Part shown: piece after piece, positions 39,703 to 64,000 of the stretch
Layout of the letters: the number at the start of each line of letters is the position of its first letter
How positions within the stretch are numbered: the first letter of the stretch is position 1
Origin: a virus
Taxonomy: Duplodnaviria; Caudoviricetes
Virus record (IMG/VR): IMGVR_UViG_3300032030_000035
Coordinates: 37,610 to 101,609 of that record
Length of the DNA: 64,000 nucleotides
Direction: 5' to 3' (one strand)
Made by a program: the position numbers and the translations under genes
The notes under the pieces: generated by a model
The model's database searches: none
Told to the model about the DNA's origin: nothing
The model's input: only the letters and a program-made list of their open reading frames with translations

Positions 39703-40608
39703 TAAAAATTCTCCTTTTTTTAACTCTAATATTATTATAACAAAAATTTTAAAACTTTTCAATAGTTTTTTGGTCAAAAGTTTTGCGGGAAGAGGGTTTT
39801 TTAGGGGAAAGGAGGATAGTGAAAATGTCATAATCGTGTTTGAAAACGAAAAAAATTTTTGGAGCGGGTGTTGTGGAGCAAAACCCATTTTAGCAAATTC
39901 ACCCAGAAAATCCCATAATACTACCCCCACATACCGCAAATCAGAGACCCTATCTTGTCTTTTACACGGGGGAGGGGTAGGAATTAATTCAAAACAGATA
40001 AGGAATCCTCGGTTTGTCAACTCAAGAGACAAACCGAATTTACGTATAATATCACTTTTACGCAAAAATTAGAATGATTTTATCATCACAGAACCAAAGA
40101 AAAAAATCCGAAAAAACACTTTTTTACCTTTTGACATTGATGTCATTTACCAATGGAAAACTGCATTTTTCTCTTGGCGTTTCACATCATCGCAATATGG
40201 TAGAAATCGCAAATCTTTCAAAAAATCCAGGGAAAACGCACGATGGCTACACGCAGCTACACCTATATATTATTCGTCGGTCCGCATCCTACCCGCGCGG
40301 ACCGAATTTTCGCATTATACCACATTTGTCAAATTTTGTCAATAGGAAAATTATACAAAAATATAGCAAAAATCTTCCCGAAATTTATACAGTTTGCCTA
40401 TTGACTTTTTCTTTGCGGCATGGTATAATTGTAGGTTAACGAGGATCCTGCTGCCTTAACTTAATCTTAATGTATCATAACTGAACCAAAATGTCAAGTA
40501 GAAAAAATAAAAAATTTTTTTTTATAAAAAGTATTGACAAGATAAACTTGCAGAGTTATAATGTATTTACAAGGTAAGGAAAAACCAAAACGAAAGGTGG
40601 TAAGCATT

Positions 40609-40896
40609 ATGACAAAGTATTATGAAGCAGAAAGAGTAAATAAAATAACTGGAGAGGTAACAAAGAAAATTGTTTTTCCTCAAGACTATGATATGTTTTA
40701 TCGGGATGAAATGTCATTCCTTAATAATAATGACAACTTCACAACTGTTGTTTACATGATAACAAGTGAAGATGAAAAGATTCTTATAACAAGACTTAAC
40801 AAGTCTGTAAGACTTAATGCAGAACACAATACAGAAAATATAATATATGTAAAACTCACAACATCAATAGAAAGAAGAGCAATAAAAAATTGGTAA
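40609..40896 (+). CDS. Hypothetical early protein
   Basis: TTGACA/TATAAT promoter and GAAAGGTGG RBS before MTKYY. Confidence 0.7.
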   Translation: MTKYYEAERVNKITGEVTKKIVFPQDYDMFYRDEMSFLNNNDNFTTVVYMITSEDEKILITRLNKSVRLNAEHNTENIIYVKLTTSIERRAIKNW

Positions 40897-40966
40897 AAAG
40901 TATTGACAATTTAACTTGTAAATACTATAATGTATTTACAAGTTAAGGAAAGGAAAGGTAATAAAT

Positions 40967-41170
40967 ATGAATTACTTAACAATCAACAATTGGGAGTACA
41001 GTTTAAACAGTTTGGAGTATGGATGCTTAATCGAATACTTTAAAAACCATAAGTGTTCAGATATCATTTATCAGGCAGTAGAAAAATGGTTTGATGAAAA
41101 GGGTATTGATACACTTGAAACAGTAGTTGATGATAATGGAAATATTATCTATCAACAATCTGAAGAGTAA
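40967..41170 (+). CDS. Hypothetical early protein
   Basis: Own promoter and RBS. Confidence 0.7.
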   Translation: MNYLTINNWEYSLNSLEYGCLIEYFKNHKCSDIIYQAVEKWFDEKGIDTLETVVDDNGNIIYQQSEE

Positions 41171-41267
41171 AACAAAAAAAAATGAAACTTTTTTTAAAAA
41201 AGGTGTTGACAAAACAAAAGGTATATGGTAATATATAATTATCAAAGGAAAGGTAAGGTAAAAAGAT

Positions 41268-41387
41268 ATGAAAAGAGTTAGAGTAGAGTTCTGGTGTGAA
41301 GCAATAGAAATTGCAAAAAAGGCTATTGATGCAGTCATCTACGAAGATAGTTACATAGGTTACATAGTAGAGTATGTAGCCATCTAA
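41268..41387 (+). CDS. 39-aa hypothetical protein (not in track)
   Basis: MKRVRVEFWCEAIE...; promoter and AAGGTAAGG RBS. Confidence 0.6.
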   Translation: MKRVRVEFWCEAIEIAKKAIDAVIYEDSYIGYIVEYVAI

Positions 41388-41637
41388 TGCGGCAGGAGCG
41401 GTACGCGGAAACGTGTATCGCTCGGCGCGTTTGCACTTGGGACGCGCCGTTCTATCAGTAGTACCATATCCCACGAATTTTGTCAATAGTAAAAATGCAC
41501 AATAATATTTGTAAAATGCTCCTAAAATTTGTGCATATTACCCTATTGACAAAGATGGCGGCAAGGGGTATAATTAAAGGATGGGTATTATCGGCGGGCC
41601 GCTAGCCAGCGTGCGTTTCGACGCGGCCCGTCCTTCA

Positions 41638-41922
41638 GAACCCAGTGTTTATGCGGGTTTCCGGGCTTCGAAAAGCCTTATTCTATGCGGGTTTCGGGGC
41701 TCCCGAATTGAAACCCTTGTATTTACTGGGCTCGCGGGGCGTCTCGAAACCCGCGCCAGACAAGGGTTTTCAGAAACCCAGTAACCATGCGGCTTTGCGG
41801 GGTGCCCCGAAACGCAGTACTGGCGCGGGTTTTGGCGCGAGCCCTTTATTTATGCGGGTTTCAAAACCCACGCCCAGCAAGGGTTTGCGGGGTGGTCGAA
41901 AAACCTTATTTTATGCGGGTTT
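41638..41922. repeat. Nine AAACCC-N11-GGGTTT palindromic boxes
   Basis: Starts at 41638, 41672, 41711, 41747, 41774, 41810, 41839, 41864 and 41900; the spacer is always 11 bp. Confidence 0.9.
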
Positions 41923-41964
41923 TGAGCGAAAATATCATTTTTGATATATTTTTAAAAAAGGAAA

Positions 41965-42345
41965 AAGTGGCGAAAATATATCATAAATGATATATTGTAT
42001 CAAATATAAAAAATGATTAAGTGGCGAAAATATATCATAAATGATATATTGTATCAAATATAAAAAATGATTAAGTGGCGAAAATATATCATAAATGATA
42101 TATTTTAAAAAATGAAACCGTACGGAAATATATCATAAATGATATATTGTATCAAATATAATTTGGCGCAATTATATTGAATTAAATATAATTTGATACA
42201 ACTATATTGAATTAAATATAATTTGATACAATATAGTTTAACTCAATTATATTGAATAAAATATAATTTGTTATTTTTCACAAAAATTTTTTAAAAATTT
42301 CGTGAAAAGTGACGAAAATTAAAAAATATATCATAAATGATATAA
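41965..42345. repeat. AT-rich tandem and palindromic repeats
   Basis: 54-bp direct repeats at 41965/42019/42073; five ATATATCATAAATGATATA palindromes; 30-bp tandem TATTGAATTAAATATAATTTGATACAA. Confidence 0.9.
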
Positions 42346-42482
42346 CCGCACAAAAATAAAAAATTGCGTTTCTTCTATATATATTTTAAAAAAATTTTTT
42401 TGCATTTTAAAATTTTTTTTTATTCTTTTTTTGATATATTTTTATTTTTCAAAAACAAAAAAGTATTTTTTAACCCTTCTCA

Positions 42483-42587
42483 AAACCCAGGTAAATCAAG
42501 GGATCTGAGGCATCGACCGCTTGAAACCCTTGATCTGCTTGGGTTCCAAAGTTTTTTCGGCTTGAAACCCTTGTGGTTATTGGGTTT
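42483..42587. repeat. Three further AAACCC-N11-GGG(T/A)T(T/C) boxes
   Basis: Starts at 42483, 42524 and 42565. Confidence 0.85.
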
Positions 42588-42780
42588 GAAAATTTTTAAA
42601 AAAAAATTAAAAAAAGTTGTTGACAACCTCAAGGGTATCTGTTACTATAGAATCAAGCCGAGGGGGTAAGGCAAACAACCCCAAACAAAAAAAAATAAAA
42701 AACTACTTGACAAGTAAAATCAAAGTGATATAATCATAAGTGTCAAGTACAAAAACCAAAAGGAAGCGAGGTAAAAAGGT

Positions 42781-42969: not shown

Positions 42970-43026
42970 GAACACACAAACGGGGGCTATAAGCCCCCAC
43001 CAACTAGGAAAAGGTAGGTAATTATT

Positions 43027-43338: not shown

Positions 43339-43587
43339 ATGATGAAATTAAGACTTACAAAGATGAAAGAAATGGCTTTTAACGATTTTAAAGAGTGGTT
43401 AGAGGAAGAAGGAGTTGAGTATCTTGCCACACCCGATAACGATATAATCCTTAACTTTGAAGATATGCGTATTGAGCAGATATACAATGACGAGGTACGC
43501 ATTTATCTGAATAAGGATAATGATTATAAAATCTTTGAACTTGCTATTGACTATGACTGCACAGAAATTAAGATTTTTTGGGCTTAG
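43339..43587 (+). CDS. Hypothetical protein (paralogue of 43634)
   Basis: AAGGTG RBS before MMKLRL; shares LE..GV.Y...DC..I.I with the next gene. Confidence 0.65.
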   Translation: MMKLRLTKMKEMAFNDFKEWLEEEGVEYLATPDNDIILNFEDMRIEQIYNDEVRIYLNKDNDYKIFELAIDYDCTEIKIFWA

Positions 43588-43633
43588 GGGATAACCCCTA
43601 AGCCACCAATAAAAATAAAAGGAGATTAAGATT

Positions 43634-43921: not shown

Positions 43922-44010
43922 TCCTTGTCATGCTAAACAGAGTATTTAAATGTAACGGCTTAGGGGATAATCCCTAAGCCACCAACTAAACGATAAAGGA
44001 GATAAAAATT

Positions 44011-44297: not shown

Positions 44298-44873
44298 ATA
44301 AACTCATAAAAACAAGGTTAAAAAAAATAAACCTTGTTTTTATTTTTAGTTTTCTATAGTCTCGAATCCGTATAGCCCCAAATAACGATACTTCTAGCTT
44401 TTTTTAACAGAAAATTTAGCTTAACCGCATAGCAGTAAAATCCCGAAATTATAGCGATTAAAATACAATACAAAAGAAATAAAGTAATAATACCCCTAAA
44501 AAAGAAACTTACACCCCAAATAAGAATAGCAATTACAAATAAAATATATATGCCCCTAAATAATTAATATGTTAAAATATATAAATTATATACTTTAATA
44601 GCTTTTAAGTCATAAATAAAATATATATACCCCAAATAATTAACATATTAAAAATTTTGCCGGCGCGTTTCCACCCGCTCAATTTCAGAAACGCGGCGTA
44701 TTTCGCATTATACCACGCCCCGAATAAAATGTCAATAGTAAAATTATACAAAGAATATAGCAATTTTATCCCGAAATTTTGTGCATTTTTTCTATTGAAT
44801 TTTAGATACCCCTAATGTATAATGGTTTTACAAGGTAAGGAAAACATACATAGCGGAAAGGTAGGTATCAGAT

Positions 44874-44996
44874 ATGGAATATTTAATGAGCGAGGAACTT
44901 TGCGAGATGGTATTTTATGGAGAGCTGACCATTGACGAGGCTAATGACTTGGTAATAGCATTTACCCCCGAAACAAATAACAATAAGCAGGAGTAA
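44874..44996 (+). CDS. 40-aa acidic peptide
   Basis: MEYLMSEELCEM...; promoter and GAAAGGTAGG RBS. Confidence 0.6.
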   Translation: MEYLMSEELCEMVFYGELTIDEANDLVIAFTPETNNNKQE

Positions 44997-45291
44997 CACC
45001 TCCTGCTACCCCTTTGAATAGAGAATACCCCCAAATAATATATCATAATCTAATCTCCACTTCGAGGGGTGAGTTTTTATAACTCACCCCTCAAAAATTG
45101 CCGCGCCGTGATGGGTTGCCACGGCGCGAGTTTCGCATTATACCCACCCCTAAATAATTTGTCAATAGGCAATTTGCACAAAAAACTACACAAGCTGATC
45201 CCGATATTTGTATAACTTTTTTCTAAAAAGGTGTTGACTTTCTATATAGATATGTTATACTTATATTATCAAAGAAAGAGAGGTAACTAAT

Positions 45292-45522
45292 ATGAATAAT
45301 GAAAAGTTTTGGGATAATATCGGATATGTAATAATGGCACTTTTGCTTATAGGTCAAGTCACTGTTGGCTGGTTATTCATGGTAGGTCAGGGTGCATATT
45401 TACTCGGTAATATCATAAATGTTATCCGTGACTATAGGTTAAACAGACCTCGTGCAGATAAAGTAAAAAATATTTGCTTTACTGCAATAACAGTAGGACT
45501 TATAATTTTATATATTTTTTAA
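45292..45522 (+). CDS. Small membrane protein
   Basis: Three hydrophobic segments; promoter and RBS. Confidence 0.7.
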   Translation: MNNEKFWDNIGYVIMALLLIGQVTVGWLFMVGQGAYLLGNIINVIRDYRLNRPRADKVKNICFTAITVGLIILYIF

Positions 45523-45600
45523 AAAAGTCCTTGACAAATGAAAAAATTTTTATTATAATAAATATATAAGATAAACAAAAGAAAGGTTAGGTACAAAACT

Positions 45601-45816
45601 ATGAGACAGTTAATTTGGGTTAACGCAGACGGAACAGAATCAAAGACATACGTTAAGGGAGCGACTACTAAATTGGTAAATCTCCCCGAGGATAACGGCA
45701 AGTCAAAACTCCTTTTCAAACTTCTCCATCAGCACTACGCAGAGGTTGGCGCAAAGGTGGTTGAAGAACTCAAGAACGGCACTTACAAGGCAGAAAATTA
45801 CGCTTTATATATGTAG
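45601..45816 (+). CDS. Hypothetical protein
   Basis: Promoter and RBS. Confidence 0.7.
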   Translation: MRQLIWVNADGTESKTYVKGATTKLVNLPEDNGKSKLLFKLLHQHYAEVGAKVVEELKNGTYKAENYALYM

Positions 45817-46079
45817 GCGGCAAGGGGTTTAAAACCCCTGCCCGCAAAATAATCTTACCTCCTCCCTATACCTTAAGGCACCCTATTTGCAAGGGTGCCT
45901 TACTTTTTGGGCGTGTCGTCATGGGGCGCGACGACACGAAATTACCATTATACCATACCCTGAATATTTTGTCAATAATAAAAGTGTACAAAAATTCAGC
46001 CCTTTCACTCCCGATATTTGTGCAACTTTTTTACATTTACCTATTGACTTATTCTGTAGTTATGGTATACTTGTATTAT

Positions 46080-46362
46080 CAAAGAGATGAGGAATAAGGA
46101 CCGAGCCTACAGGGTGGGCGAGGATTGCGGCGACCAAGTCCTGGGGGTGTCACCGCACTCGCGAAACTAACAGAGATACCCATTAAATCGGTGGTGCCTA
46201 TCACGAGGCAGTTTCTCCTAAAAGATATCGTGACAGTGACCCTTAACTTTTCCACCACTAAGGCAATGGAAAATGACCTATGTTGTGCTAACGAGCAAGG
46301 TCGGGCAGAAAATTGCATACCGGTAGCAACGGGAGAGGGGGTTTTAATCCCTCTCCTTTTTC
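46080..46362 (+). ncRNA. Candidate structured ncRNA (~280 nt)
   Basis: Promoter TTGACT..TATACT, no RBS-led ORF, GC-rich with several stems, ends at terminator GGAGAGGG/CCCTCTCC-T-run. Confidence 0.5.
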
Positions 46363-46593
46363 TTTTGAGCGTCGCGTCAACTCAAGAGACGCGACGTATT
46401 TTCAATTATGTTACGTATAACATATTTTTGTCAATCAGTAATTTGCACAAAAATGCAACAGGAAAAATCCCGATATTTGTGCATATTTTTTTTAAAAAAT
46501 TTTTCTAAAAAGTGTTGACATACACCCTATAAAATGGTAGTATATATATGTAAGGAAGAGTTAACAACCAAAACGGAAAGGTAGGTAACAGTT

Positions 46594-46902
46594 ATGATAA
46601 ACATTAGAACACTTAGAAACATTAAAAACAACGGTGGCTTAACACTTAAAAATGGCAAGGCTATCACATATAAAACAGGATGGCAGGTTGCTACAGAGGG
46701 CGTACAGACAACCGATATCAACGAAGTCCGTGGACTTATTAAGAAATATAACGGTAACTGCGGACTGTGGCTTGAAAATGGTATATGGTATGTAGATAAA
46801 AGCCATAGGGTAAATACAAAAAAGGAAGCGCTCCGAATCGGCAGAGAGTGTAATCAGATATCTGTTCTAAAATGGTCTAATATGTCTCTTGCCTACTGCT
46901 AA
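46594..46902 (+). CDS. Hypothetical phage protein
   Basis: 102 aa; promoter and RBS; GGLT..GWQVA..GLW..YVD..EA..G..NQ motif pattern. Confidence 0.7.
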   Translation: MINIRTLRNIKNNGGLTLKNGKAITYKTGWQVATEGVQTTDINEVRGLIKKYNGNCGLWLENGIWYVDKSHRVNTKKEALRIGRECNQISVLKWSNMSLAYC

Positions 46903-47010
46903 AAAGTAGGCAAGAAAAAATAAAAAAAATTTTTAAAAAATGCTTGACAAAATAATCGGTATATGGTAATATATAATCATAAGGAAAACAAAGAAAGGTT
47001 GGTAAGAAAT

Positions 47011-47154
47011 ATGTTTATAGTTAAAGGTTTTAAAAATGGCGTTGTAGAATCAATTCACTGCTTTGGAATGTCCGAAGCATATAGAGCATATCATAAGTTG
47101 ATTAACTCAGGGTATACCGGGATCAAAATTTCTGACTCCAATATACTCGTTTAA
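47011..47154 (+). CDS. Hypothetical protein
   Basis: RBS before MFIVK. Confidence 0.6.
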   Translation: MFIVKGFKNGVVESIHCFGMSEAYRAYHKLINSGYTGIKISDSNILV

Positions 47155-47500
47155 CCTCCTACCTTACCTACGGGGCACCAAATTGGTGCCCTCTTTTGTT
47201 TTGGCCGGTCAGCGATGGGTCGCCGCTGACCGTATTTTTAATTATATCACCCTTTGCGATTTTTGTCAATAGGAAAATTGCACAAAATTTTTAACAATTC
47301 CGTCCTAAAATTCTACATATTTTTTCTTGCTGATCTTGGTATAGTTTTGTCAATAGTAAAAATGTACAAAAATTTACAGTAAAAAACTTTATCTTTGTAC
47401 AATTTTCTTTAAATTTCCCCTTGAAATCCATATTTGCTTTTGTTATAATGTATTTACAAGGTAAGGAAAACAATTTAGTTATGAAAGGTAGGTGCTTATT

Positions 47501-47650
47501 ATGTGGTATGTTATGGTTGATTATGGTTGTGGTGATGTTAGATGCGTCGGCGAGTACGACTCTTGCAATGACGCTCTTGAGCGTTCCGAAATGTTCGAGG
47601 ACGCCTGGGTTTGCTCCGATGAGGATGACGAGCCCGGTAGCAGAGAGTAA
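47501..47650 (+). CDS. 49-aa acidic Cys-containing peptide (not in track)
   Basis: MWYVMVDYGCGDVRC...; GAAAGGTAGG RBS; terminator follows. Confidence 0.65.
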   Translation: MWYVMVDYGCGDVRCVGEYDSCNDALERSEMFEDAWVCSDEDDEPGSRE

Positions 47651-47891
47651 AAAAGAAAGACTCCGAAAGGAGTCTTTTTTCTTTGGGCGTGGCGTCAACA
47701 AAAAAGACGCCACGTATTTAGCGTTATACCATGCTCCGAACATTTTGTCAATAGTAAATATGCACAAAAATAATCAGCGGAAGATCCTAAAATTTGTGCA
47801 TCTTTTTCGTTTCTACCTCTTGCAAACTTTTAAAATTTATGTTATTATATCTATACAAGGTAAGGAAAAACATTAAAGCGAGGTATTTAAT

Positions 47892-48116
47892 ATGGCATAC
47901 TACAGATTTAACAACATTATCATTTCAAGAAACGATTTAATTTCTATTGTCTGCACTGAAATTTTTGATAATGGCAGACGCGATGTACTCACAAAAGAGT
48001 TACAGAAAATTAAAACACCCGAGTTACTCAAGCGTAAAGTACAGGCTCGTGCGCACAGAATAGCATTAAAGCTCGGTCTTGATGTTGAGTATATAGGACA
48101 AGGAAGAGAGGTGTAA
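47892..48116 (+). CDS. Hypothetical protein
   Basis: Promoter and GAGGT RBS. Confidence 0.7.
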   Translation: MAYYRFNNIIISRNDLISIVCTEIFDNGRRDVLTKELQKIKTPELLKRKVQARAHRIALKLGLDVEYIGQGREV

Positions 48117-48118
48117 TT

Positions 48119-48271
48119 ATGGGAGATTTATTTTTAGCAATACAAGAGAAAGGGTATAATCCAGAGTTAGCGATATATACACCCGAACCGAACAACGATC
48201 GATATATCATAGTTGCTATCCGTGGTCGGTACGTCGGAAAATATGATACTTTTAAGAGAGAATGGGCTTGA
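48119..48271 (+). CDS. 50-aa hypothetical protein (not in track)
   Basis: MGDLFLAIQEKGY...; GAGGTG RBS; its stop overlaps the next TTGACA. Confidence 0.6.
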   Translation: MGDLFLAIQEKGYNPELAIYTPEPNNDRYIIVAIRGRYVGKYDTFKREWA

Positions 48272-48321
48272 CATTCTCTCTTGAATGTGGTAAGATATAA
48301 TCATCAAAAGAAAGGTAGGTA

Positions 48322-48516
48322 ATGATTATGAGAACACTTTGTTATGCACTTGATTGGGAAAATACGGGAGTTTGTCTTGCACTGACAGTGCTTGAAAGCC
48401 TTTTCCCTTGTTTCGTATCTTATAACGATATCGATGAAGATACATTCGAGGTATCTATCACATGTCGCCAGGAAGATGCGGCGGCTATCGAGAGAAAGTT
48501 GGCGGCTCATATGTAA
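48322..48516 (+). CDS. Hypothetical protein
   Basis: Promoter and RBS. Confidence 0.65.
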   Translation: MIMRTLCYALDWENTGVCLALTVLESLFPCFVSYNDIDEDTFEVSITCRQEDAAAIERKLAAHM

Positions 48517-48752
48517 GCCGCCATCTCTCCAAGGCTTTGAGCGTCGCGTAATCTACCCGCCACGCGACGTATTTTGCGATTATACCATATTCGGGAAAAT
48601 TTGTCAATAGGCAATTTATACAAAATTTTTAACATAATAATCCCGAAATTTGTGCATATTTTTTCTATAAAAATGTTGACATATTTTCTCTATGTGGTAT
48701 ACTAATAATGTAAGGAAGATAAACAACCAAATCGGAAAGGTAGGTAACAGCT

Positions 48753-49025
48753 ATGTTAATAATGTCAGATGTAGCAACAACAGAGAGAGAAACAAGAGAG
48801 GAAACTATTGAGGAAAGAGAGTATCAGGTTCACGATGCCGTAGATAGCATCGAGTACGACCTCATCGACTTAAAGGAAAATATAGAAATTCTCTTAGATA
48901 ATTTTGGCGACTATATGGAAGATATGACCGAAGAAGAGGAAGATAACTTCTGTGCAGATATCTACGAGAAGATCACATTCCTTGAAGAAATGCAGGAACT
49001 CCTCGCAAAAAGACCAATCAGATAG
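48753..49025 (+). CDS. Highly acidic small protein
   Basis: About one third Asp/Glu; promoter and RBS. Confidence 0.7.
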   Translation: MLIMSDVATTERETREETIEEREYQVHDAVDSIEYDLIDLKENIEILLDNFGDYMEDMTEEEEDNFCADIYEKITFLEEMQELLAKRPIR

Positions 49026-49091
49026 TTACAAAATAATAGAGGCGGTGGCAAGGCACACGGGCCGCCGCCAAGAAAGGTAGAGGTAAAAGAT

Positions 49092-49283
49092 ATGATGAAA
49101 AAATTTATAATAAGAGTCTATACAAATAATTTAGAGGTATATAGGTATAACATTTACGCTCTAAACTATACAAACGCAAAGCGAGAAGCACTTGCAAAAT
49201 ACTTGAATAACCACTCTGGAGCCTCCATTTTTATGATTATAGCTGACAGTGTTGATATTGTCGCAGAGGACTACCTCACTTAA
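49092..49283 (+). CDS. Hypothetical protein
   Basis: GAGGT RBS. Confidence 0.6.
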   Translation: MMKKFIIRVYTNNLEVYRYNIYALNYTNAKREALAKYLNNHSGASIFMIIADSVDIVAEDYLT

Positions 49284-49453
49284 AAGGTGTCGCCAATAGC
49301 TTTGGCGGCACGTGATTTGCTGACACGTGCCGCATTTTTTGTCAAGAGGTAAATTGCATAAAATTATAACTGAAAATTTGGTTATTATTACCTATTGATT
49401 ATTCCTAAAATATCATTTATAATGGTATTATCAAAGAAAGAGAGGTAAGTAAA

Positions 49454-49864
49454 ATGTTAAGAGTATTTAAAAGTTTTTATGAGATTATATGGTCAGATGG
49501 AGAAAAAGAAGAGTTATGCTATGATATTAACACTCGTGCTTTACCTATTTTAAGTGAAACAAATCTTGATAATGAAATGTGGAATCTTGAAAATTTTGCA
49601 AATGCTTATGACTTTTTCAATAAACATCCTTATTTTTATGGCTATTGTTCTATGCGTTCATTTTTTAATAAACCTATTATTTATATGCCGGAAGGAGTAT
49701 GTATAACAACAAAAAATTTCATACCTTTTAAGGTTATCAAATCTTATGAGGATGTAACTGATAAGGTATCTATTAAAGATTTAGCCAATGATTTATCGGC
49801 TGATGATTTCTGTAGATTCTTAAAAGATAGGCAGATAAATTTCAATTTAGAGTTGACAAGATAA
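49454..49864 (+). CDS. Hypothetical protein
   Basis: 136 aa; promoter and RBS. Confidence 0.7.
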   Translation: MLRVFKSFYEIIWSDGEKEELCYDINTRALPILSETNLDNEMWNLENFANAYDFFNKHPYFYGYCSMRSFFNKPIIYMPEGVCITTKNFIPFKVIKSYEDVTDKVSIKDLANDLSADDFCRFLKDRQINFNLELTR

Positions 49865-49912
49865 AAATTTTATTATATAATAATATTATCAAAAGAAAGA
49901 GAGGTAACAAAA

Positions 49913-50113
49913 ATGGATAATTTTGTATCAACAATGCTCGGAGCTATCGCAGAAGATATTAAGGTATCAAAAGAGGATATATGGGCAGATTTCAGCAACT
50001 TTAACAAGGCTATCGACGAGAAAATTGCGGAAGGCTATTCCGAAGAGGAAGCCATAAACATCGTTGCATCCTCATGGAACTTTGATTTTGTGGTTCCACA
50101 GGCAGAGGGATAA
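49913..50113 (+). CDS. Small acidic protein
   Basis: Promoter and RBS. Confidence 0.7.
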   Translation: MDNFVSTMLGAIAEDIKVSKEDIWADFSNFNKAIDEKIAEGYSEEEAINIVASSWNFDFVVPQAEG

Positions 50114-50336
50114 ACAAGTAAGCGACGCTCATTAAGTTGGGCGTCGCGTTAGCACTTGTAACGCGACGAATTTTCAATTATACCACACCTTGCAAAATTT
50201 GTCAATAGGCAAAATGCACAAAAATATAACTATGGTGATCCCGAAATTTGTGCAACTTTTTTTCTAAAACCCCTTGCAAAGTTTCAAAATCTATGGTATT
50301 ATATCTTTACAAGATAAGGAAAGCGAGGTATTAAAT

Positions 50337-50546: not shown

Positions 50547-50556
50547 GGTGGTAACT

Positions 50557-50736: not shown

Positions 50737-50794
50737 CAAAAACTGCGGCAAGGTGTATAATATAACTACAGTTAAGGAAAGGTAGGTAATAGTA

Positions 50795-51871: not shown

Positions 51872-52090
51872 GAAACCTCTTCCCGCAAGGTAAGGTCACC
51901 AGCTCGTGGCCTGCCGCCGCGAGCTGAATTTACCATTATGCCATACTCCATATAATTTTGTCAAGGGGTAATTTTATACAAAAAATTTTTTATAACTTTC
52001 CCGATATTTGTGCAACATTTTCGTTGACTTTTTACTATTGTGGGGTTATAATATATTTACAAGTTAAGAAAAGAAAGTGAGGTAATTATT

Positions 52091-52468: not shown

Positions 52469-52779
52469 ATTTATAAAACGGCTCGGCATTTTTACTCGCC
52501 GAGCCGTGCGCATTTCACACGGCTCGTATTTTTGTCAAGATGGCAATTTGTATAAAAATAAAACTGATATTTTGTGCAATATTCCCTATTGCAATTATCC
52601 CATAATGTGTTATACTATAATTACAGAAAGGGAAAGAAATGCAAGTGGATAACCTTTCAAAGAGAAAAATGGCACTGATAATCATAAAAGTAGGGGTTGT
52701 TAAGACTTTAGCAATTTTGAAAAAAGATTATTACCCATTGGAAACTTGCCCGACAATTTTGAAAGAGAGGAAATAAAAA

Positions 52780-53169: not shown

Positions 53170-53396
53170 TTAAAAGAGGGTTTAACCCTCTTTTTTTTGT
53201 TCGGCGGCTCGCTTGCATTCGAAGCGAGCCGCAATTTCTATTATGCCACCAGTCACATATTTTGTCAATGGTAAATTTCAACAAAAATAATGCAAGAAAA
53301 ATCCTAAAATTTATATAACTTTTTTCACCATACCTCTTGCAATTTTCAACGTATATGGTATAATTTAATTACAATAAAAGAAAGGAAATAAAAAGT

Positions 53397-53861
53397 ATGG
53401 CAGATAAAATGTTGGTATTTGATATGGATGGCACTATCGCAGACCTTTACGGCGTAGATAATTGGTTAACAGATTTAAGGTCTTACAATCCTCGCCCTTA
53501 TGAAAATGCAAAGCCTATGTACAATATGGATAAACTTAATGAGGTATTAAACACTCTAAAGGGTATGGGTTGGAAAGTAGTTGTAACCTCTTGGTTGGCA
53601 AAACAGAGCCATCCTACCTATGATAATGCCGTAAGAAAAGCGAAACTTGATTGGCTTGAAAAATACAAGTTTCCTTATGACGAGATACACCTTGTAAAAT
53701 ATGGTACAACAAAAGCAAACTGCACTCGTCATCATGGCGGTTACCAGGTTTTGATTGATGACAACGAGAAAGTAAGAAATGGATGGCGGTTAGGTCATAC
53801 CATAGATGCAAACAAAGATATTCTTGAAGATTTAAGGGCTCTCATGGGGGCTACTGCTTAA
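53397..53861 (+). CDS. HAD-superfamily 5'(3')-nucleotidase-like hydrolase
   Basis: VFDMDGTIAD motif I, VVTS, K..WL, LIDDN motif IV. Confidence 0.8.
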   Translation: MADKMLVFDMDGTIADLYGVDNWLTDLRSYNPRPYENAKPMYNMDKLNEVLNTLKGMGWKVVVTSWLAKQSHPTYDNAVRKAKLDWLEKYKFPYDEIHLVKYGTTKANCTRHHGGYQVLIDDNEKVRNGWRLGHTIDANKDILEDLRALMGATA

Positions 53862-54062
53862 AAGAGGAGTTTAAACACTCCTCTTTTTTCTTTGGTCAGG
53901 TCGTGGTTTGCCGCCACGACCTGCATTTTTGTCAAGTAGTAATATTCGATAAATTTTATAACTGAATTTTAGTGATATTTACTACTTGCGTTTATCCCAT
54001 AATTTGCTATAATTATACTTGTAAGGAACAAGGAAATAACAAAGGAAAGGTTGGTAAAAGAA

Positions 54063-55325
54063 ATGGCACTTACAAAGAATGAGAAATTTAAACTTGATAA
54101 TTTTATATGTAGGCATATCAATGATTATCTGGCAACAAAAAATGTCCCTATCTCAACTATTCATTCCGATATGGATAATGATGATGTTGTATTTTCTGCA
54201 CCTTTAAAATTAGTAAGCCTTCAGGCAAGTGGTAAAAGAGTAAATGAAAATCTTATTATAAAAAGAGATGGTGACATTTTAATCTTTACAACAGACAAGA
54301 CTTTAAAATTCAATGGTAGTTATTATGAATGGGGTAAGGTTGTCAAAGAAAAAAATATTTTTCATCTCACAGGTTATACGGGATTGCAGTATGACGTTAT
54401 CACAAAAGAATTTAATATTGATATAAATAACTGTAAAGACTATTCTCGTCATTATGGTGGTTTTGAAAATATCGTTAACAACTATGAATGGATTTTTAAC
54501 TATCAGAATGATTTTTCTGAAATAAGAAACATAGTTGAAATGTGTAGAGGTTTTGGATGCAATACAATGCCTAAAGGGTTGGCTACAGAATTAAATGGTT
54601 GCACTTTAACTGCCGATTTTCTTAAAAAGTACCTTTTAAGAAATTGTAGTGGCAAATATTATAACATAAGTGAAAATTTATGGCATTACCTTGGCTTAAG
54701 TTCACTCAAAATTATATCGTGGGTAAATGAAAATATACCTTTTGAAAGTTTTATGAAAATGATTAAAAACGAAATAGTTTCAGAAACTTATCGTGATAAT
54801 ATGGTTATCAATGGTGACATAAATAGATTCTTTGAATGTGTTGGAGATATGCTTAGAAAATGGGATGATAAAGAGCCGTTTAAATTCAATTTTGAAAGAA
54901 GCATTACCTATAACTGTGACGCAATGAATGATTATACAGATAAAGAAAAGAATAAAAAACTTGCTGCTAAATTACAGGCATTTAACTTTATCAATAATTT
55001 AAAAATCAATGATGATAAGTACATTGTAGTAGTACCACAAACACAAGGTGATAAACGTGAAGAGGGTAGACAACAGAATAATTGTGTTGGCTCTTATTAT
55101 GACGATTATATTTTATCGGGTAAAGGTACTGTTTATTTCATAAGAAAGACAAATAATAAGAATCACTCTTTTATTACTTGCCGTTTTGATTATAAATCAA
55201 ATAGGACTGTTGAAGCAAGATATGTAAATAATAATTCTATCGAGAATGAAGATTACGTAATTATAGATAACCTCGATAAAATAATCAGAGAAAAACTTAA
55301 TGAAAAAAGAAAGGAAGAAAACTAA
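54063..55325 (+). CDS. PcfJ-like domain protein
   Basis: C-terminal VVP....EG..QNNCVGSY......YFIRK pattern. Confidence 0.65.
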   Translation: MALTKNEKFKLDNFICRHINDYLATKNVPISTIHSDMDNDDVVFSAPLKLVSLQASGKRVNENLIIKRDGDILIFTTDKTLKFNGSYYEWGKVVKEKNIFHLTGYTGLQYDVITKEFNIDINNCKDYSRHYGGFENIVNNYEWIFNYQNDFSEIRNIVEMCRGFGCNTMPKGLATELNGCTLTADFLKKYLLRNCSGKYYNISENLWHYLGLSSLKIISWVNENIPFESFMKMIKNEIVSETYRDNMVINGDINRFFECVGDMLRKWDDKEPFKFNFERSITYNCDAMNDYTDKEKNKKLAAKLQAFNFINNLKINDDKYIVVVPQTQGDKREEGRQQNNCVGSYYDDYILSGKGTVYFIRKTNNKNHSFITCRFDYKSNRTVEARYVNNNSIENEDYVIIDNLDKIIREKLNEKRKEEN

Positions 55326-55326
55326 A

Positions 55327-55668
55327 ATGAAGAAAATCACTAACCACATTTACCTTGATGAACAGAACGGCGCTATCGCCATTGACGCAACAACAGAGGG
55401 AGAAGCAAGAGAAATTGCTTTAAGGTTTCTGCGTGATAACGGCATCCCCAACCTTTACGGGATTTCCGTAGGGGATGAAACGGCACTTGCAAGGCTTGAT
55501 ATTCCAAGAGATATGGAAAATACATTACTCCACCATGATGAAAATGGAGAGCAGATGGAAGAATATACAGCCCCTCTTATGCGTCAGACACTCTCACGGC
55601 TTATCGACATGGGACTTATTAGAGAAGATACCCCTCGTCGAAATAATGATGACGATTATCTGTGGTAA
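55327..55668 (+). CDS. Hypothetical protein
   Basis: AAGGA RBS before MKKIT. Confidence 0.6.
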   Translation: MKKITNHIYLDEQNGAIAIDATTEGEAREIALRFLRDNGIPNLYGISVGDETALARLDIPRDMENTLLHHDENGEQMEEYTAPLMRQTLSRLIDMGLIREDTPRRNNDDDYLW

Positions 55669-55842
55669 AAACATGGCACGACTAAGGCTAAAACCTTTGG
55701 TCGTGCCATTTACTGTCGAAATGGCACGAATTTGCTGTCAAGATGTATTTTTACTAATTTTATTTCTCAATTTTTGGTAACATTTACCTATTGTAATTTT
55801 CCCGATATTTGTTATACTAATATTATCAAAGAGGTAAATAAT

Positions 55843-56730: not shown

Positions 56731-56802
56731 GTGCCCGTAGCTTAGTGGTAAAGCACCCGACTTTTAATCGGGTTACCGGGAGTTCAAATCTCCTCGGGCA
56801 CA
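56731..56802 (+). tRNA. tRNA-Lys(UUU)
   Basis: GTGCCCG/CGGGCAC acceptor, GCTT/AAGC D-stem, CCCGA-CTTTTAA-TCGGG anticodon arm, GGGAG-TTCAAAT-CTCCT T-arm; CCA not encoded. Confidence 0.92.
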
Positions 56803-57187
56803 TCAGCGGTTTTAGCAATGGGTTTCCGCAAACAAAAAAATCTCACGATAGTTTTTAGGGTGTGACACATTTTTTCTATCGTTATCAAAAAATGTTAGCG
56901 AGATGGTTTTTTCTGATTTTTTCCGATAAAATAAATCAGACCATTATTAGACGGACGCGTCGAAAAAAGCCCTCTGACGAGAGGGCATTTTTTTTTGTCG
57001 GCTCGACATGGGTCGCGTCGAGCCGAATTTCTAATTATATCACCTTCCACAAAATTTGTCAATAGGCAATTCCACCAAAAACGCCTTCCCGCAACTCCCA
57101 AAATTTGTGCAATATTACTACTTGTTTTTCTTATTCTATCTGTTATAATATATATATCAGTTAAGAAAAGAAAGGAAAGTAATAAAA

Positions 57188-58653: not shown

Positions 58654-58822
58654 AAAGAGCCGTTGGAGTATTCCGACGGCTCGTTCGCTACTCAAACGAG
58701 CCGTATTTTCATTTATTGTATAATTTGTATAATTTTAAACTGTAAATTTGGTCATTATTACCACTTGTATTTATCCTATAATATGGTATACTTATATTAT
58801 CAAAGAAAGAGAGTAAACAGTT

Positions 58823-59023: not shown

Positions 59024-59109
59024 TAAGAGGTGGCGGAAAGGCAAACGCCGGATGTGGCTCGTTCTCTGAAAAGAGTGTAGAATTGCAGGTTCGAATCCTG
59101 CCCTCTTAA
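59024..59109 (+). ncRNA. tRNA-like RNA with aberrant anticodon arm
   Basis: TAAGAGG/CCTCTTA acceptor, TGGCGGAAAGGCAAACGC D-arm, GCAGG-TTCGAAT-CCTGC T-arm; own promoter and terminator. Confidence 0.7.
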
Positions 59110-59406: not shown

Positions 59407-59579
59407 GCTGCGGCAAGGCACTTTGCTCGACCGCGGCGTCATTTAACGCAACGCCGCGGATTTTTTGTCAAGATGTATTTTCACTAAATTTTAATTTCCA
59501 TTTTTGTATAATACTACCTATTGTTTTTGTCCCGAAATAGTGGTATTATTAGTATATCAAAGAAAGAGAGGTAACAGTT

Positions 59580-60422: not shown

Positions 60423-60425
60423 AAA

Positions 60426-60677: not shown

Positions 60678-60691
60678 AAGGAGAAAATAAA

Positions 60692-60874: not shown

Positions 60875-61110
60875 AAAAATAAGCCGCTCAAGTATTGACT
60901 TGGACGGCTCGTTTGCACTTGAAACGAGCCGAACTTTCCATTATACCACCTGCCGCAAAATTTGTCAAGAGAAAAAGTGAAAAAATTTTCACAAAATTTA
61001 ATCCTAAAATTTGTGCAATTTTTTACTCAAAACTACTTGCAATTATTTTAAATAAGAGTATAATTATAATTGTAAGGAAGATAATACACAACAGAAAAGA
61101 GGTAACTGTT

Positions 61111-62039: not shown

Positions 62040-62045
62040 TAAAAT

Positions 62046-62237
62046 ATGATTAAAATTGTAAGATATGGTTGTCCTATTCTATATTGTACTTGTAATAACT
62101 GTGGGTCGAAAATAAGTTATAATAAATATGATACAGAATATGAGCATGAAATGACAGAATACTATCTAAAACAATATGAATATTTAGAGTGCCCTGTATG
62201 TGCAAATAAAATTATTGTAGGAGAGGAGAATAAATAA
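62046..62237 (+). CDS. Zn-ribbon protein
   Basis: CNNCG...CPVC. Confidence 0.7.
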   Translation: MIKIVRYGCPILYCTCNNCGSKISYNKYDTEYEHEMTEYYLKQYEYLECPVCANKIIVGEENK

Positions 62238-62239
62238 AT

Positions 62240-62464
62240 ATGAGTGATATTTTAATTTTAAAAGCAAACATTTTAGGTGGTATGAATGAATATATCCATG
62301 AAATCGGAGATGAAGATGTCCTTAATGATTGGTATGCATATGGCATCCCCGATGGATGCACAGAAGAAATGCTTATGGACTTCGCAGGAGATGAAAGAAT
62401 ATTCATGAATATTGTTGATGTATTCAACTCAATATTAGTTGATATCAATGGTGTTAATTATTAA
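62240..62464 (+). CDS. Hypothetical protein (paralogue of 50930-51145)
   Basis: MSD..I...IL..MN..I...GDED....W...GIPD.C. Confidence 0.7.
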   Translation: MSDILILKANILGGMNEYIHEIGDEDVLNDWYAYGIPDGCTEEMLMDFAGDERIFMNIVDVFNSILVDINGVNY

Positions 62465-62985
62465 AGGGTTAGATAATAGCCCTTTTTTATTTTGTGACGG
62501 GAACGGGGAATGGAGGGGTCTGAGAAAATTAAATCTATATTTAATTTCCTCCGACGGGTCGCGATGAACCGCCGCGACCCGAAATTTCCATTATACCACT
62601 TTCCGCATATTTTGTCAAGTGAAAATTTGCACAAAAATTTACACATTTTAATCCTAAAATTATACTTTACTTTTGCTAAAATTTTTGATATAATTATTAT
62701 AGATGGAAAGGAAACAAGTCGGTAACGGCTTTAAGTAATGGGGTTTCCGTGGCTATATGTGAGGGTTTAGGTAGCCATCAAAAAAAATAAAAAATTTTTA
62801 TTGACAAACAAAAAATCTTATGTTATAATAAATATGTAAGATAAAGAAAGAGGAAAAGTCAAGTACCTCTTAAAAAATTTAAAAAAAAATAAAAAAAACA
62901 CTTGACAAACTTAATAAAGAATGTTATAATAATAACATAAAGAACAACAAACAAACAAATTTTTTAAGAAAGGTGGTCATTAACT

Positions 62986-63348
62986 ATGGCAGAGAAGAAA
63001 GTAACTAAGGTAGAGAAATTTAACGCAATTGCAAAGGTACTTGCTGATGCAGGTGTCAGCACACTCTCTATCCGCAACGAAGAGGTCAATGTAGCAGAGT
63101 TCATCGGTAACGAGGTTGCTCTTATCGAGAAGAAAGCATCAAAGGCTACAACCAAGAGAGTAGACAATTCAGAGGGTATTGCAAAGGTACGCGAGGTACT
63201 CGCAGACGGTAAGGCTTACACCCCTACTGAAATCCAGGCTCTCACTGGTCTTGTCAATACGCAGAAAGTCGCTTCAGTCCTCAAGGCTATGGGCGATAGC
63301 GTAAAGAGAGAGACAAAGGGCAAGAAAGTAACTTACAAACTTGCCTAA
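62986..63348 (+). CDS. Winged-helix DNA-binding protein
   Basis: YTPTEIQ...NTQKVASVLK...VKRETKGKKVTYKL wHTH-like; high-expression codon style; tandem promoters upstream. Confidence 0.6.
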   Translation: MAEKKVTKVEKFNAIAKVLADAGVSTLSIRNEEVNVAEFIGNEVALIEKKASKATTKRVDNSEGIAKVREVLADGKAYTPTEIQALTGLVNTQKVASVLKAMGDSVKRETKGKKVTYKLA

Positions 63349-63379
63349 TCGGAAATGGGGCTTTTAATAGCCCCATCCC

Positions 63380-63655
63380 TTAGGGGAAATTGGGTTTCGA
63401 AAGGCTTATCCCGAGTTGCAGACAAAAACTTGCTCCCTATGAAAAGCAGATGAAGTTTTTCCGTTGTGCATTACGATAAATCCCGTAGAAAAAAGGCAGA
63501 TGACGACGTTAGAAATAGGCTGTCCGTATGGTATAACGAGATAATACTACGCTTAAGATTTCCCGTGATACATTCATCTCATAAGGAGATGAAAGAAATC
63601 TCCTAAAAAGCATCCCATTATTACGAGGTCTGCAACTCGTAGGGGTGCTTTTTTT
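63380..63655 (+). ncRNA. Candidate structured RNA
   Basis: No ORF; perfect 12-bp long-range pairing 63412-63423/63628-63639; internal stems; terminator. Confidence 0.45.
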
Positions 63656-64000
63656 GTTTGGTCGGGCAGTTCGCTTCTCAAACTGCCCGAAATTTCCATT
63701 ATATCACATCCCGCAAAATTTGTCAAGAGGAAATTTGCACAAAGATTAAAAAAGTTTTATCCTAAATTTGTTACTTTTTACCTATTGTGTTATTTAAAAA
63801 ATTTTGATATAATCTATATATAAACAAAAGGGAACAAAAAATTTTTTAAACGGGAGTTATAAAAAATTTAAAAAACCCTATTGACAAATTTAAAAAAATT
63901 TGATATAATTATTACATAAGGTTAAGGAAAAACCAAAAAGTTTTAAAAAAAAGTCTTGACAGTTTTCAAAAAATCTGATATAATAAATATATAAGGTTAA

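What the first reader, a model, noticed from the sequence alone, without database searches (positions are those of the whole stretch)
40278..63726. Sixteen leftward sigmaA promoters that start transcription at the base of the hairpin: a dispersed small-RNA family
Seen: in 16 elements (40278, 41423, ~44660, 45102, 45912, 46370, 47206, 47688, 48542, 50142, 51900, 53205, 56999, 60905, 62555, 63663) the palindrome is followed by ATTATAYCA-like...TGTCAA. On the minus strand this is TTGACA-17-TATAAT, perfect in many copies (e.g. 40314-40342) and degenerate in a few. The predicted +1 falls a few nt before the stem. No ORF follows, and several run into bidirectional terminators (e.g. 47650-47683, 56963-56996), giving roughly 60-90 nt RNAs. 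Loop-edge bases often pair as G-U only on the minus strand (loops GGCGACCCATC, CGCGACCCATG, TTGAGAAGCGA), extending the stem to ~10 bp with a ~7-nt loop. Loops recur in families (CAAGTGC x3, CGACCCA x2). Inference: multi-copy 5'-hairpin sRNAs acting as protein decoys, antisense regulators, or defence-system mimics conceptually like RNA anti-CRISPRs or ToxI mimics.
Basis: partly seen in the sequence, partly recalled or inferred. Interest (0 to 1): 0.85.

Follow-up and report, generated by a model that had tools for sequence, protein, structure and literature searches.

The report
Backward-firing promoters in phage gene cassettes
A ruminant-gut phage repeats a small control cassette along its early genes, and 16 copies carry a near-perfect promoter that fires backwards into the stop-signal hairpin of the preceding gene unit; these look like local antisense or insulator devices, not a family of free-acting small RNAs.

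Summary
All 16 listed sites have a GC hairpin followed about 8 nt later by a minus-strand TTGACA-17-(TG)TATAAT. Twelve are perfect, three have one mismatch and one (41423) is degenerate. The hexamers stay fixed while the spacers drift, in six related ruminant-gut phage lineages, so these are real, selected promoters whose RNA starts at the stem base.

The small-RNA decoy reading is not supported:
- The stems differ at almost every site.
- There is no minus-strand folding or G-U bias.
- All 153 stem pairs tested are strict Watson-Crick.
- Six further hairpins of the same family lack the leftward -10. Five of these have plus-strand anti-terminator arms just after the upstream stop codon.
- Close relatives pair the same hairpin with or without the leftward promoter.
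- Only 4-5 sites have a nearby minus-strand terminator.

The promoter is one part of a ~170-bp cassette: hairpin, leftward promoter, inverted repeat with a TCC box 70-73 nt from the hairpin, then a rightward promoter. The cassette bounds shufflable gene modules, as T4 PeSL elements do. The first copy faces the phage sigma-factor gene.

Best reading: terminator plus antisense-promoter modules acting in cis. No transcript data could be obtained. Other first-reader notes of this scan cover the same stretch.

The parts
40277..40342 (-). Cassette 1: hairpin 40277-40305 plus a perfect leftward promoter 40314-40342. It points at the phage sigma-factor gene (38584-40065, minus strand). TCC box at 40376.
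41423..41486 (-). Hairpin 41423-41449 plus a leftward promoter with a degenerate -10 and -35 TGTCAA at 41481-41486. TCC box at 41520.
44661..44735 (-). Imperfect long-loop hairpin (~44661-44698) plus a perfect leftward promoter 44707-44735. TCC box at 44769.
45102..45165 (-). Hairpin 45102-45128, which also has a T-run on the minus strand, plus a perfect leftward promoter 45137-45165. TCC box at 45199.
45912..45975 (-). Hairpin 45912-45938, preceded by the canonical + terminator 45874-45902, plus a perfect leftward promoter 45947-45975. TCC box at 46009.
46370..46434 (-). Hairpin 46370-46396, preceded by the + terminator 46331-46357, plus leftward promoter 46405-46434 (11/12, 18-nt spacer). 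TCC box at 46468.
47206..47269 (-). Hairpin 47206-47232, preceded by the + terminator 47172-47192, plus a perfect leftward promoter 47241-47269. TCC box at 47303.
47688..47751 (-). Hairpin 47688-47714, preceded by the bidirectional terminator 47656-47677, plus leftward promoter ~47723-47751 (-10 TATAAC). TCC box at 47785.
48542..48607 (-). Hairpin 48542-48569 plus a perfect leftward promoter 48579-48607. TCC box at 48641.
50142..50205 (-). Hairpin 50142-50168 plus a perfect leftward promoter 50177-50205. TCC box at 50239.
51900..51964 (-). Hairpin 51900-51926 plus leftward promoter 51935-51964 (11/12). TCC box at 51999.
53204..53268 (-). Hairpin 53204-53232, preceded by the terminator 53172-53194, plus leftward promoter 53240-53268 (11/12). 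TCC box at 53302. In the close relative the same hairpin is followed by a cassette without the leftward -10.
56998..57062 (-). Hairpin 56998-57026, preceded by the bidirectional terminator 56969-56986, plus a perfect leftward promoter 57034-57062. TCC box at 57096.
60905..60968 (-). Hairpin 60905-60931 plus a perfect leftward promoter 60940-60968. TCC box at 61002.
62555..62618 (-). Hairpin 62555-62581 plus a perfect leftward promoter 62590-62618. TCC box at 62652.
63662..63726 (-). Hairpin 63662-63690 plus a perfect leftward promoter 63698-63726. TCC-like box at ~63762.
49289..49411 (+). Type B cassette with no leftward -10. Anti-terminator arm 49289-49295, terminator hairpin 49305-49333 with a T-run, TGTCAA 7 nt after the hairpin, TCC box 49403 inside the spacer of the rightward promoter.
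52478..52606 (+). Type B cassette. Overlapping alternative hairpins 52478-52507 and 52499-52526. TCC box at 52598.
53897..54003 (+). Type B cassette. Hairpin 53897-53923 with a T-run, preceded by the terminator 53860-53887. TCC box at 53995.
55675..55808 (+). Type B cassette. Anti-terminator arm 55675-55682, hairpin 55701-55729, TCC box 55800. In the close relative the same hairpin is followed by a cassette that does carry the leftward promoter.
58658..58782 (+). Degenerate type B cassette. Anti-terminator arm 58658-58664, hairpin 58676-58704, TCC box 58774.
59407..59538 (+). Type B cassette. Anti-terminator arm 59407-59413 directly after the stop codon, hairpin 59431-59459, TCC box 59530.

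Best explanation
The 16 leftward promoters are real host-RNA-polymerase (sigmaA/sigma70-type) promoters. Each is one part of a repeated ~170-bp regulatory cassette that separates the early-gene modules of a large ruminant-gut phage.

A cassette reads, left to right:
1. a strictly Watson-Crick GC hairpin that ends the preceding module;
2. 8 nt later, the leftward promoter;
3. an inverted repeat (TTGCACAAA ... TTTGTGCAA) with a TCC box fixed 70-73 nt from the hairpin;
4. a weaker rightward promoter for the next module.

Proposed mechanism (inferred). The hairpin stops rightward transcription. The consensus promoter directly behind it fires back over the hairpin. Its RNA therefore starts with a protective 5' hairpin and runs antisense into the terminator and 3' end of the preceding module, stopping early only where that terminator is bidirectional. 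Together they form a terminator/antisense-promoter module that insulates and dampens the upstream unit in cis, by polymerase head-on blockade, collision and antisense pairing, as lambda oop RNA does. They are not a family of trans-acting small RNAs.

The first copy serves as the early promoter of the leftward phage sigma-factor gene. This suggests the cassette spread from that divergent control region.

The cassettes also act as recombination linkers for module shuffling, as T4 PeSL elements do.
For: Shown:
- Promoter enrichment: 31 perfect matches against 0.13 expected, and the leftward copies are as good as or better than the cassettes' own rightward promoters.
- In a 40-cassette alignment from six phage lineages, ATTATAcCA and TTTGTCAA are the best-conserved blocks while the 17-nt spacer varies (loci).
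- The -10-to-stem distance is fixed, so +1 lies at or inside the stem in every lineage.
- Stem pairing: 153 of 153 cells paired, 47 double-sided changes, no one-sided change. This is what is expected if the hairpin must fold on both strands.
- The plus-strand terminator role is shown by the T-tract after the hairpin and by own-specific anti-terminator arms in type B copies, which rank 0 of 21 against other elements' arms.
- Synteny breakpoints against a close relative fall within 6 nt of hairpin edges 6 times against 0.85 expected (p = 0.00025).
- A module-order swap has junctions exactly at hairpin bases. A deletion variant has its crossover inside the leftward -10.
- The first copy faces the sigma-factor gene with no other consensus promoter between them.

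Published analogues:
- Terminator-associated antisense initiation in E. coli and B. subtilis, and suppressive terminator/antisense-promoter modules (PMC6978322).
- A strong antisense promoter repressing a convergent sense promoter in B. subtilis (PMC12802891).
- PeSL cassettes in T4-type phages (PMC2839356).
Against: - There are no transcript data.
- About half the leftward-promoter cassettes already have a separate canonical terminator upstream, so extra insulation may be redundant there.
- Six cassettes work without the leftward promoter, and relatives swap the two types freely, so the promoter is dispensable at any single site.
- The fixed 70-73 nt hairpin-to-TCC spacing, kept in both cassette types and in distant relatives, is not explained by this model.
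- Loop sequences are more conserved than stems. This hints at a loop-binding factor that the model does not need.
Confidence: 0.5

Rival explanations
1. One reading: the sites encode a multi-copy family of short 5'-hairpin RNAs that act in trans as protein decoys or as mimics of CRISPR repeats or antitoxin repeats.
For: The promoters are real and start at the hairpin. A few copies would give ~70-nt RNAs ending at bidirectional terminators. Loop sequences recur in families across different stems and lineages.
Against: - At least 17 different stems exist, with only C1, G2 and G7 invariant, so there is no common repeat to mimic.
- There is no minus-strand bias in folding or G-U pairs.
- The hairpin and the promoter belong to different modules and are re-paired by recombination.
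- The same hairpins occur without the promoter.
- Most copies lack a nearby minus-strand terminator.
- No Rfam family reaches threshold.
Confidence: 0.07
2. The leftward promoter exists mainly to help its back-to-back partner. Divergent firing or polymerase recruitment raises local negative supercoiling or polymerase density and boosts the weak rightward promoter. The leftward RNA is a by-product.
For: The cassettes' rightward promoters are sub-consensus (mostly 10-11 of 12, with weak -35) while the leftward ones are perfect. The two sit back-to-back, ~60-70 bp apart, around a shared inverted repeat. Another note of this scan reports a phage gyrase, which I did not check.
Against: Type B cassettes have equally weak rightward promoters yet no leftward partner. 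The model does not explain why the start must abut a hairpin.
Confidence: 0.12
3. The 5' hairpins are nut/put-like loading sites. A phage factor binding the conserved loops makes leftward polymerases termination-resistant. Short transcripts then become long leftward RNAs that silence the early genes and feed the sigma-factor and late operon on the minus strand.
For: Loops are more conserved than stems. All late genes lie leftward on the minus strand, beginning with the sigma-factor gene that the first copy faces.
Against: No antiterminator was identified. The loop families also occur on hairpins without the promoter, for example L013 2857. Sixteen entry points seem excessive. There is no strand bias.
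Confidence: 0.08
4. The primary function is at the DNA level. The perfect palindrome (as hairpin or cruciform) and the TCC box 70-73 nt away form a bipartite site for a structure-specific protein that mobilises or recombines gene cassettes. Transcription from the leftward promoter merely assists, or is incidental.
For: Stems are strictly Watson-Crick with an invariant CG base. The hairpin-to-TCC spacing is fixed in both cassette types and in distant relatives. Recombination junctions fall exactly at hairpin bases where the neighbouring hairpins share no homology.
Against: No tyrosine recombinase, serine recombinase or HUH (Y1) transposase was found in the record, which is only 66% complete. 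One deletion variant arose by ordinary homologous crossover inside the -10. Selection for working junctions could mimic precision.
Confidence: 0.1
5. The leftward promoters are passengers. They are copies of the sigma-gene/early-gene divergent control region carried along when cassettes duplicated, with no function of their own.
For: The first copy has a real downstream gene. The promoter is dispensable at single sites.
Against: Hexamers, the TG extension and the 17-nt spacing are preserved while spacers diverge, in 40 cassettes from six lineages. That is the signature of selection on each copy, not of neutral carry-over.
Confidence: 0.08

Closest known systems
PeSL (promoter-early stem-loop) cassettes of T4-type phages (PMC2839356, PMC4122927)
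   Same: Short repeated intergenic cassettes that combine a strong sigma70-type early promoter with a terminator stem-loop. They are concentrated among small early ORFans. Insertion, deletion and replacement breakpoints between close relatives fall in the cassettes.
   Different: Here the sequence, the phage type (a large tailed phage of ruminant gut with Firmicutes-like promoters) and the architecture all differ. The geometry is fixed. A second, consensus promoter faces backwards into the hairpin. There is an inverted repeat plus a TCC box at a constant 70-73 nt. Two cassette subtypes exist. Mini-circles were not tested.
Terminator/antisense-promoter modules and terminator-coupled antisense initiation (PMC6978322)
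   Same: An intrinsic terminator with a promoter on the opposite strand just behind it. Such modules are known to suppress the upstream sense gene and may be fed by polymerases recycled after termination.
   Different: Natural examples have weak, poorly conserved antisense promoters at variable distance. Here the promoter is full consensus, sits 8 nt from the stem, is repeated 16 times and is conserved across lineages.
Lambda oop RNA and P22 sar RNA (from my own knowledge, not checked here)
   Same: A short leftward RNA from a constitutive promoter inside a rightward early operon, antisense to the end of the upstream gene.
   Different: Those are single copies with defined terminators and targets. 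Here there are 16 copies, mostly without a nearby terminator, and the RNA starts with a hairpin borrowed from the neighbouring module.
Convergent dual-promoter switch of B. subtilis helD (PMC12802891)
   Same: A strong antisense promoter facing a sense promoter at close range. This resembles relatives L010 and L011, where consensus promoters converge on the hairpin from both sides.
   Different: The helD switch has no hairpin between the promoters, senses rifampicin and is chromosomal. In the window itself there is no close upstream sense promoter.
5'-terminal stem-loop RNA stabilisers of Bacillus (aprE and ermC leaders, SP82 early RNA; from my own knowledge)
   Same: A stem within a few nt of the 5' end, the geometry that blocks 5'-end-dependent decay.
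   Different: Those stabilise mRNAs. Here only the first copy has a gene downstream.

Membership tests
PeSL-type mobile regulatory cassette | A strong sigma70-type early promoter with an adjacent stem-loop, repeated in intergenic spaces among small early ORFs | tested here: met
   22 cassettes lie in 24 kb of small ORFs. Promoter enrichment is shown.
PeSL-type mobile regulatory cassette | Differences between close relatives (insertion, deletion, replacement) have their breakpoints in the cassettes | tested here: met
   Six of 36 alignment ends lie within 6 nt of a hairpin edge against 0.85 expected (p = 0.00025). One search shows a module swap and a deletion variant.
PeSL-type mobile regulatory cassette | Sequence relatedness to T4-type PeSLs, and a T4-like phage | tested here: not met
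   The phage family differs: the portal protein's nearest matches are gut, Enterococcus, Brevibacillus and Lactococcus phages. The motifs also differ. This is an analogue, not a member.
PeSL-type mobile regulatory cassette | Excised cassette mini-circles | not testable with these tools
   Needs inverse PCR on infected cells or virions.
Terminator/antisense-promoter module | A sense-strand intrinsic terminator with an opposite-strand promoter close behind it | tested here: met
   The hairpin is followed by a T-tract on the + strand, and the consensus promoter on the - strand lies 8-9 nt away.
Terminator/antisense-promoter module | Antisense RNA 5' ends at the site, and reduced expression of the upstream gene | not testable with these tools
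Trans-acting small-RNA family (RNA anti-CRISPR, ToxI-like mimic) | Copies share a conserved sequence that mimics a defined repeat | tested here: not met
   17 aligned hairpins have 64% mean column identity, and only C1, G2 and G7 and their partners are invariant.
Trans-acting small-RNA family (RNA anti-CRISPR, ToxI-like mimic) | A discrete promoter-to-terminator unit of uniform size | tested here: not met
   Only 4-5 of 16 have a minus-strand terminator within ~80 nt.
Trans-acting small-RNA family (RNA anti-CRISPR, ToxI-like mimic) | Similarity to host CRISPR or antitoxin repeats | not tested
   The host is unknown and no host genome was identified.
Any Rfam family | A score at or above the gathering threshold | tested here: not met
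   Only tRNA passes. cow-rumen-3 scores 29.7 bits against 86.7 at one type B element, and no relative gives a hit.
Integron attC cassette array | An integron-type tyrosine recombinase nearby | tested here: inconclusive
   PF00589, PF00239 and PF01797 gave no match, but the record is only 66% complete.
Integron attC cassette array | An imperfect hairpin with extrahelical bases and a conserved GTTRRRY core | tested here: not met
   The stems are perfect Watson-Crick and the flank is WATTT.

The most novel reading that the evidence does not exclude
The hairpin (strictly Watson-Crick, invariant CG base, conserved loop families) and the TCC box held 70-73 nt away are the two halves of a site read by a dedicated phage factor. 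That factor could be a loop-binding antitermination or loading protein acting on the hairpin-capped leftward RNAs. Alternatively it could be a structure-specific recombination system that moves promoter-bearing gene cassettes, an integron-like device in a lytic phage, with the leftward promoters driving it.
Probability: 0.12. Interest if true: 0.8.

Novelty: new variant of a known kind. Interest (0 to 1): 0.5.

Why it matters
If the leftward promoters work as proposed, this phage clade has turned the loose bacterial habit of antisense initiation behind terminators into a fixed, repeated, portable part. Each early-gene module would then carry its own stop signal, a backward-facing guard promoter and a forward promoter. 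That would explain how dozens of small takeover genes can be shuffled between phages without disturbing their neighbours. It would also give a natural, compact insulator design for Gram-positive synthetic biology. The unexplained 70-73 nt hairpin-to-TCC rule and the conserved loops point to a still-unknown binding factor.

Tried and rejected
One search shows only that a sheep-gut metatranscriptome holds 62% of the sampled words of 44600-51000. That says nothing about strand or ends.
- A megablast of 20 kb against GenBank phages found no match.
- An IMG/VR pattern scan for the leftward promoter plus TCC box gave 31 hits, all chance matches without a hairpin. The window's own lineage is left out of that listing.
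- Contigs carrying the 102-aa protein gave useful variants, but their ends fall in A-rich low-complexity sequence and cannot be read as transcript ends.
- A minus-strand G-U bias was rejected.
- An association between an upstream canonical terminator and the presence of the leftward promoter was not significant (22/3 against 20/9, p = 0.11, on non-independent data).
- By eye I considered the TCC box as a sigmaD-type -10 (CCGATAT), a Spo0A box, a CodY box, an IHF site or the -10 of a plus-strand promoter. None fits all copies or has a consistent -35.
- The phage's own late-promoter candidates do not resemble the TCC box.
- Reading the inverted repeat as DnaA boxes is tempting. L010 has three perfect TTATCCACA, but the window copies match only 7-8 of 9.
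- N4-type hairpin promoters were rejected because the stem and loop sizes differ and sigmaA hexamers are present.

Full report
**Context.** The window is the last 64 kb of a 101.6-kb IMG/VR virus record. CheckV rates the record 66% complete. Its DNA occurs in sheep, goat and bovine gut samples. Up to 40065 the genes run leftward. They include portal, terminase-like and virion proteins and, closest to the finding, a phage sigma factor at 38584-40065. From 40.2 kb to the contig end about 80 small ORFs run rightward. Most sit behind their own consensus promoters. There are also two tRNA genes and several ORF-less units.

**The observation.** The window holds 31 perfect TTGACA-N16-18-TATAAT sites against 0.13 expected. 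Twelve are on the minus strand. One of these (23890-23918) lies outside the region, and the other eleven each sit next to a GC hairpin of the list. The -10 lies 8-9 nt from the stem, so a start on the A-rich discriminator falls 1-4 nt before it. No consistent SD-led ORF follows. Two details do not hold. Only 4-5 sites have a minus-strand terminator nearby. The supposed minus-only G-U pairing is absent: summed folding energies are -370.3 (+) and -372.2 (-), with 11 and 15 G-U pairs.

**The promoter is part of a larger cassette.** Alignment from the hairpin outward shows this order:
- the hairpin;
- WATTT, then ATTATAcCA, a 17-nt spacer and TTTGTCAAtag, which together form the leftward promoter;
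- TTGCACAAAAAT;
- a TCC box (TCCYRAWAT);
- TTTGTGCAA and a T-run;
- a weaker rightward promoter and the next genes.

Six further elements (49305, 52499, 53897, 55701, 58676, 59431), which I call type B, have the hairpin followed directly by ATTTTTTGTCAAG. They have no leftward -10, and their TCC box sits inside the spacer of the rightward promoter. In all 22 elements the TCC box starts 70-73 nt after the hairpin, although TGTCAA sits at +32 in type A and +7 in type B. The same 69-72 nt holds in relatives. This bipartite rule was noted by other first-reader entries on the same stretch. I confirm it but cannot explain it.

**Relatives.** Loci fetched through the sigma factor and a conserved early protein show the same cassette in six lineages, at 41-97% protein identity. 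In a 40-cassette alignment the best-conserved blocks are the leftward -10 with its TG extension, the leftward -35, the TCC box and TTTGTgCA. The promoter spacer drifts. That pattern indicates selection on each promoter copy. In a 100%-complete relative (165 kb) the leftward copies are confined to one ~25-kb early region. In another complete relative with terminal repeats they lie at both genome ends. In L010 and L011 the hairpin is flanked by consensus promoters converging from both sides, and the predicted starts fall inside the stem. Chance matches to the promoter-plus-TCC pattern elsewhere in IMG/VR never carry the hairpin (0 of 31).

**The hairpin.** Seventeen hairpins of equal geometry pair in 153 of 153 cells. 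There are 47 double-sided changes and no one-sided (G-U) change, and C1, G2 and G7 are invariant. Orthologous hairpins show compensatory swaps, for example CGGTCAGCG against CGGGCAGCG. Strict Watson-Crick pairing fits a stem that must fold on both strands, or one that acts as DNA. It gives no support to a minus-only RNA. On the plus strand the hairpin is followed by a T-tract, averaging 4.1 T of 9 nt in type A and 5.9 in type B. Five of the six type B hairpins have an upstream arm complementary to their own left arm, placed 0-9 nt after the stop codon of the preceding ORF. In the four scored cleanly this arm ranks 0 of 21 against other elements' arms. The fifth, 52478/52499, was read by eye. 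These are plus-strand regulated terminators. About half of the type A hairpins are preceded by a separate canonical terminator, and the rest are the only terminator of the upstream unit.

**Modules and shuffling.** Against the close relative the early region is a mosaic. Alignment ends fall within 6 nt of a hairpin edge 6 times against 0.85 expected (p = 0.00025). Two modules (53233-53863 and 53858-55733) are in swapped order, with junctions exactly at the 3' bases of hairpins 53204-53232 and 55701-55729. As a result, a hairpin followed by a type A cassette in one phage is followed by type B in the other. Other junctions lie on the 5' side of the hairpin. A variant contig (L019) has lost one module by a crossover inside the leftward -10. 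So the hairpin belongs to the upstream module and the leftward promoter to the downstream one. The predicted RNA is a chimera whose hairpin sequence changes whenever modules move. No recombinase or HUH enzyme was found in the incomplete record.

**Interpretation.** The promoters are real (about 0.85-0.9 on comparative grounds). Their products would be hairpin-capped leftward RNAs. Five things argue against sequence-specific trans-acting decoys:
- the diversity of the stems;
- the modular uncoupling of hairpin and promoter;
- the existence of promoter-less copies;
- the plus-strand terminator role of the hairpin;
- the heterogeneous predicted lengths.

The arrangement matches a kind already described: an intrinsic terminator with an antisense promoter just behind it. 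Such modules suppress the upstream gene and may be fed by polymerases that stay on the DNA after termination (PMC6978322). A strong antisense promoter repressing a facing sense promoter is also documented in B. subtilis (PMC12802891). The fixed 5' stem is the geometry of Bacillus 5' stabilisers (my own knowledge), so the antisense RNA would be long-lived. The first copy faces the sigma-factor gene with no other consensus promoter between them. That gives the leftward promoter a conventional job there and a plausible origin. As repeated promoter/stem-loop linkers at shuffling breakpoints, the cassettes are functional analogues of T4 PeSLs (PMC2839356), but they are not members of that family.

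**What remains open.**
- No RNA evidence could be obtained.
- The 70-73 nt hairpin-to-TCC rule is unexplained.
- Loops are better conserved than stems.
- The inverted repeat is DnaA-box-like: three perfect TTATCCACA in L010, but only 7-8 of 9 positions in the window.

These features suggest an unidentified binding factor, and they keep alive the DNA-level and nut-like readings listed as rivals.

**Verdict.** I rate it a new variant of a known kind, of moderate interest.

Noticed in passing
window 49289-49333, 52478-52526, 55675-55729, 58658-58704, 59407-59459: Type B hairpins look like translation-sensing attenuators. An arm complementary to the terminator's left arm starts 0-9 nt after the stop codon of the upstream ORF, so a terminating ribosome would mask it and favour termination.
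   Followed up: partly
window 41580-42600: An ORF-less block of AAACCC...GGGTTT boxes flanking very AT-rich tandem and palindromic repeats, just after the second cassette. It looks like a replication origin.
   Followed up: no
window 46080-46330; also 41575-41640, 62700-62770, 63350-63650: Promoter-to-terminator units without an ORF. They are GC-rich and apparently structured RNAs, and no Rfam family matches them.
   Followed up: no
window 52498-52625 (-): A weak match to Rfam cow-rumen-3 (29.7 bits against a gathering score of 86.7), mostly through the terminal hairpin. No relative gives a match at threshold, so it is probably not the same family.
   Followed up: partly
L010 about 3245-3060 and 1570-1440 (read on the - strand); L011: In a ~50%-identity relative the hairpin is flanked by consensus promoters converging from both sides. 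One cassette has three perfect DnaA-box nonamers (TTATCCACA/TGTGGATAA) around its TCC box.
   Followed up: partly
window 42982-42998, 43581-43604, 43957-43980: Intercistronic GC hairpins without T-runs lie inside a multi-gene unit. Two are near-identical (GGCTTAGGGG...CCCCTAAGCC). They may be RNA processing or stabilising sites.
   Followed up: no
window 38584-40065 (-): The phage sigma factor (phrog_5767) has a C-terminal ~50-residue stretch that matches endonuclease VII and Lar-like zinc-ribbon families.
   Followed up: no
window 56731-56802 and 59024-59109: A tRNA-Lys(UUU) and an 86-nt tRNA-like gene called Ala(GGC). The second has its own consensus promoter directly upstream. The first follows a promoter at 56622 after a ~80-nt leader.
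   Followed up: no
L019 1946-2010 compared with window 47206-47760: A natural variant lacks the module between cassettes 47206 and 47688. The crossover lies inside the shared leftward -10 (AATTATACCA), which shows ordinary homologous recombination between cassettes.
   Followed up: yes
G002 (the record that holds L013), both ends: In a complete relative with direct terminal repeats the cassette-bearing early region spans both genome ends, as in phages whose takeover genes lie in or next to the terminal redundancy.
   Followed up: partly
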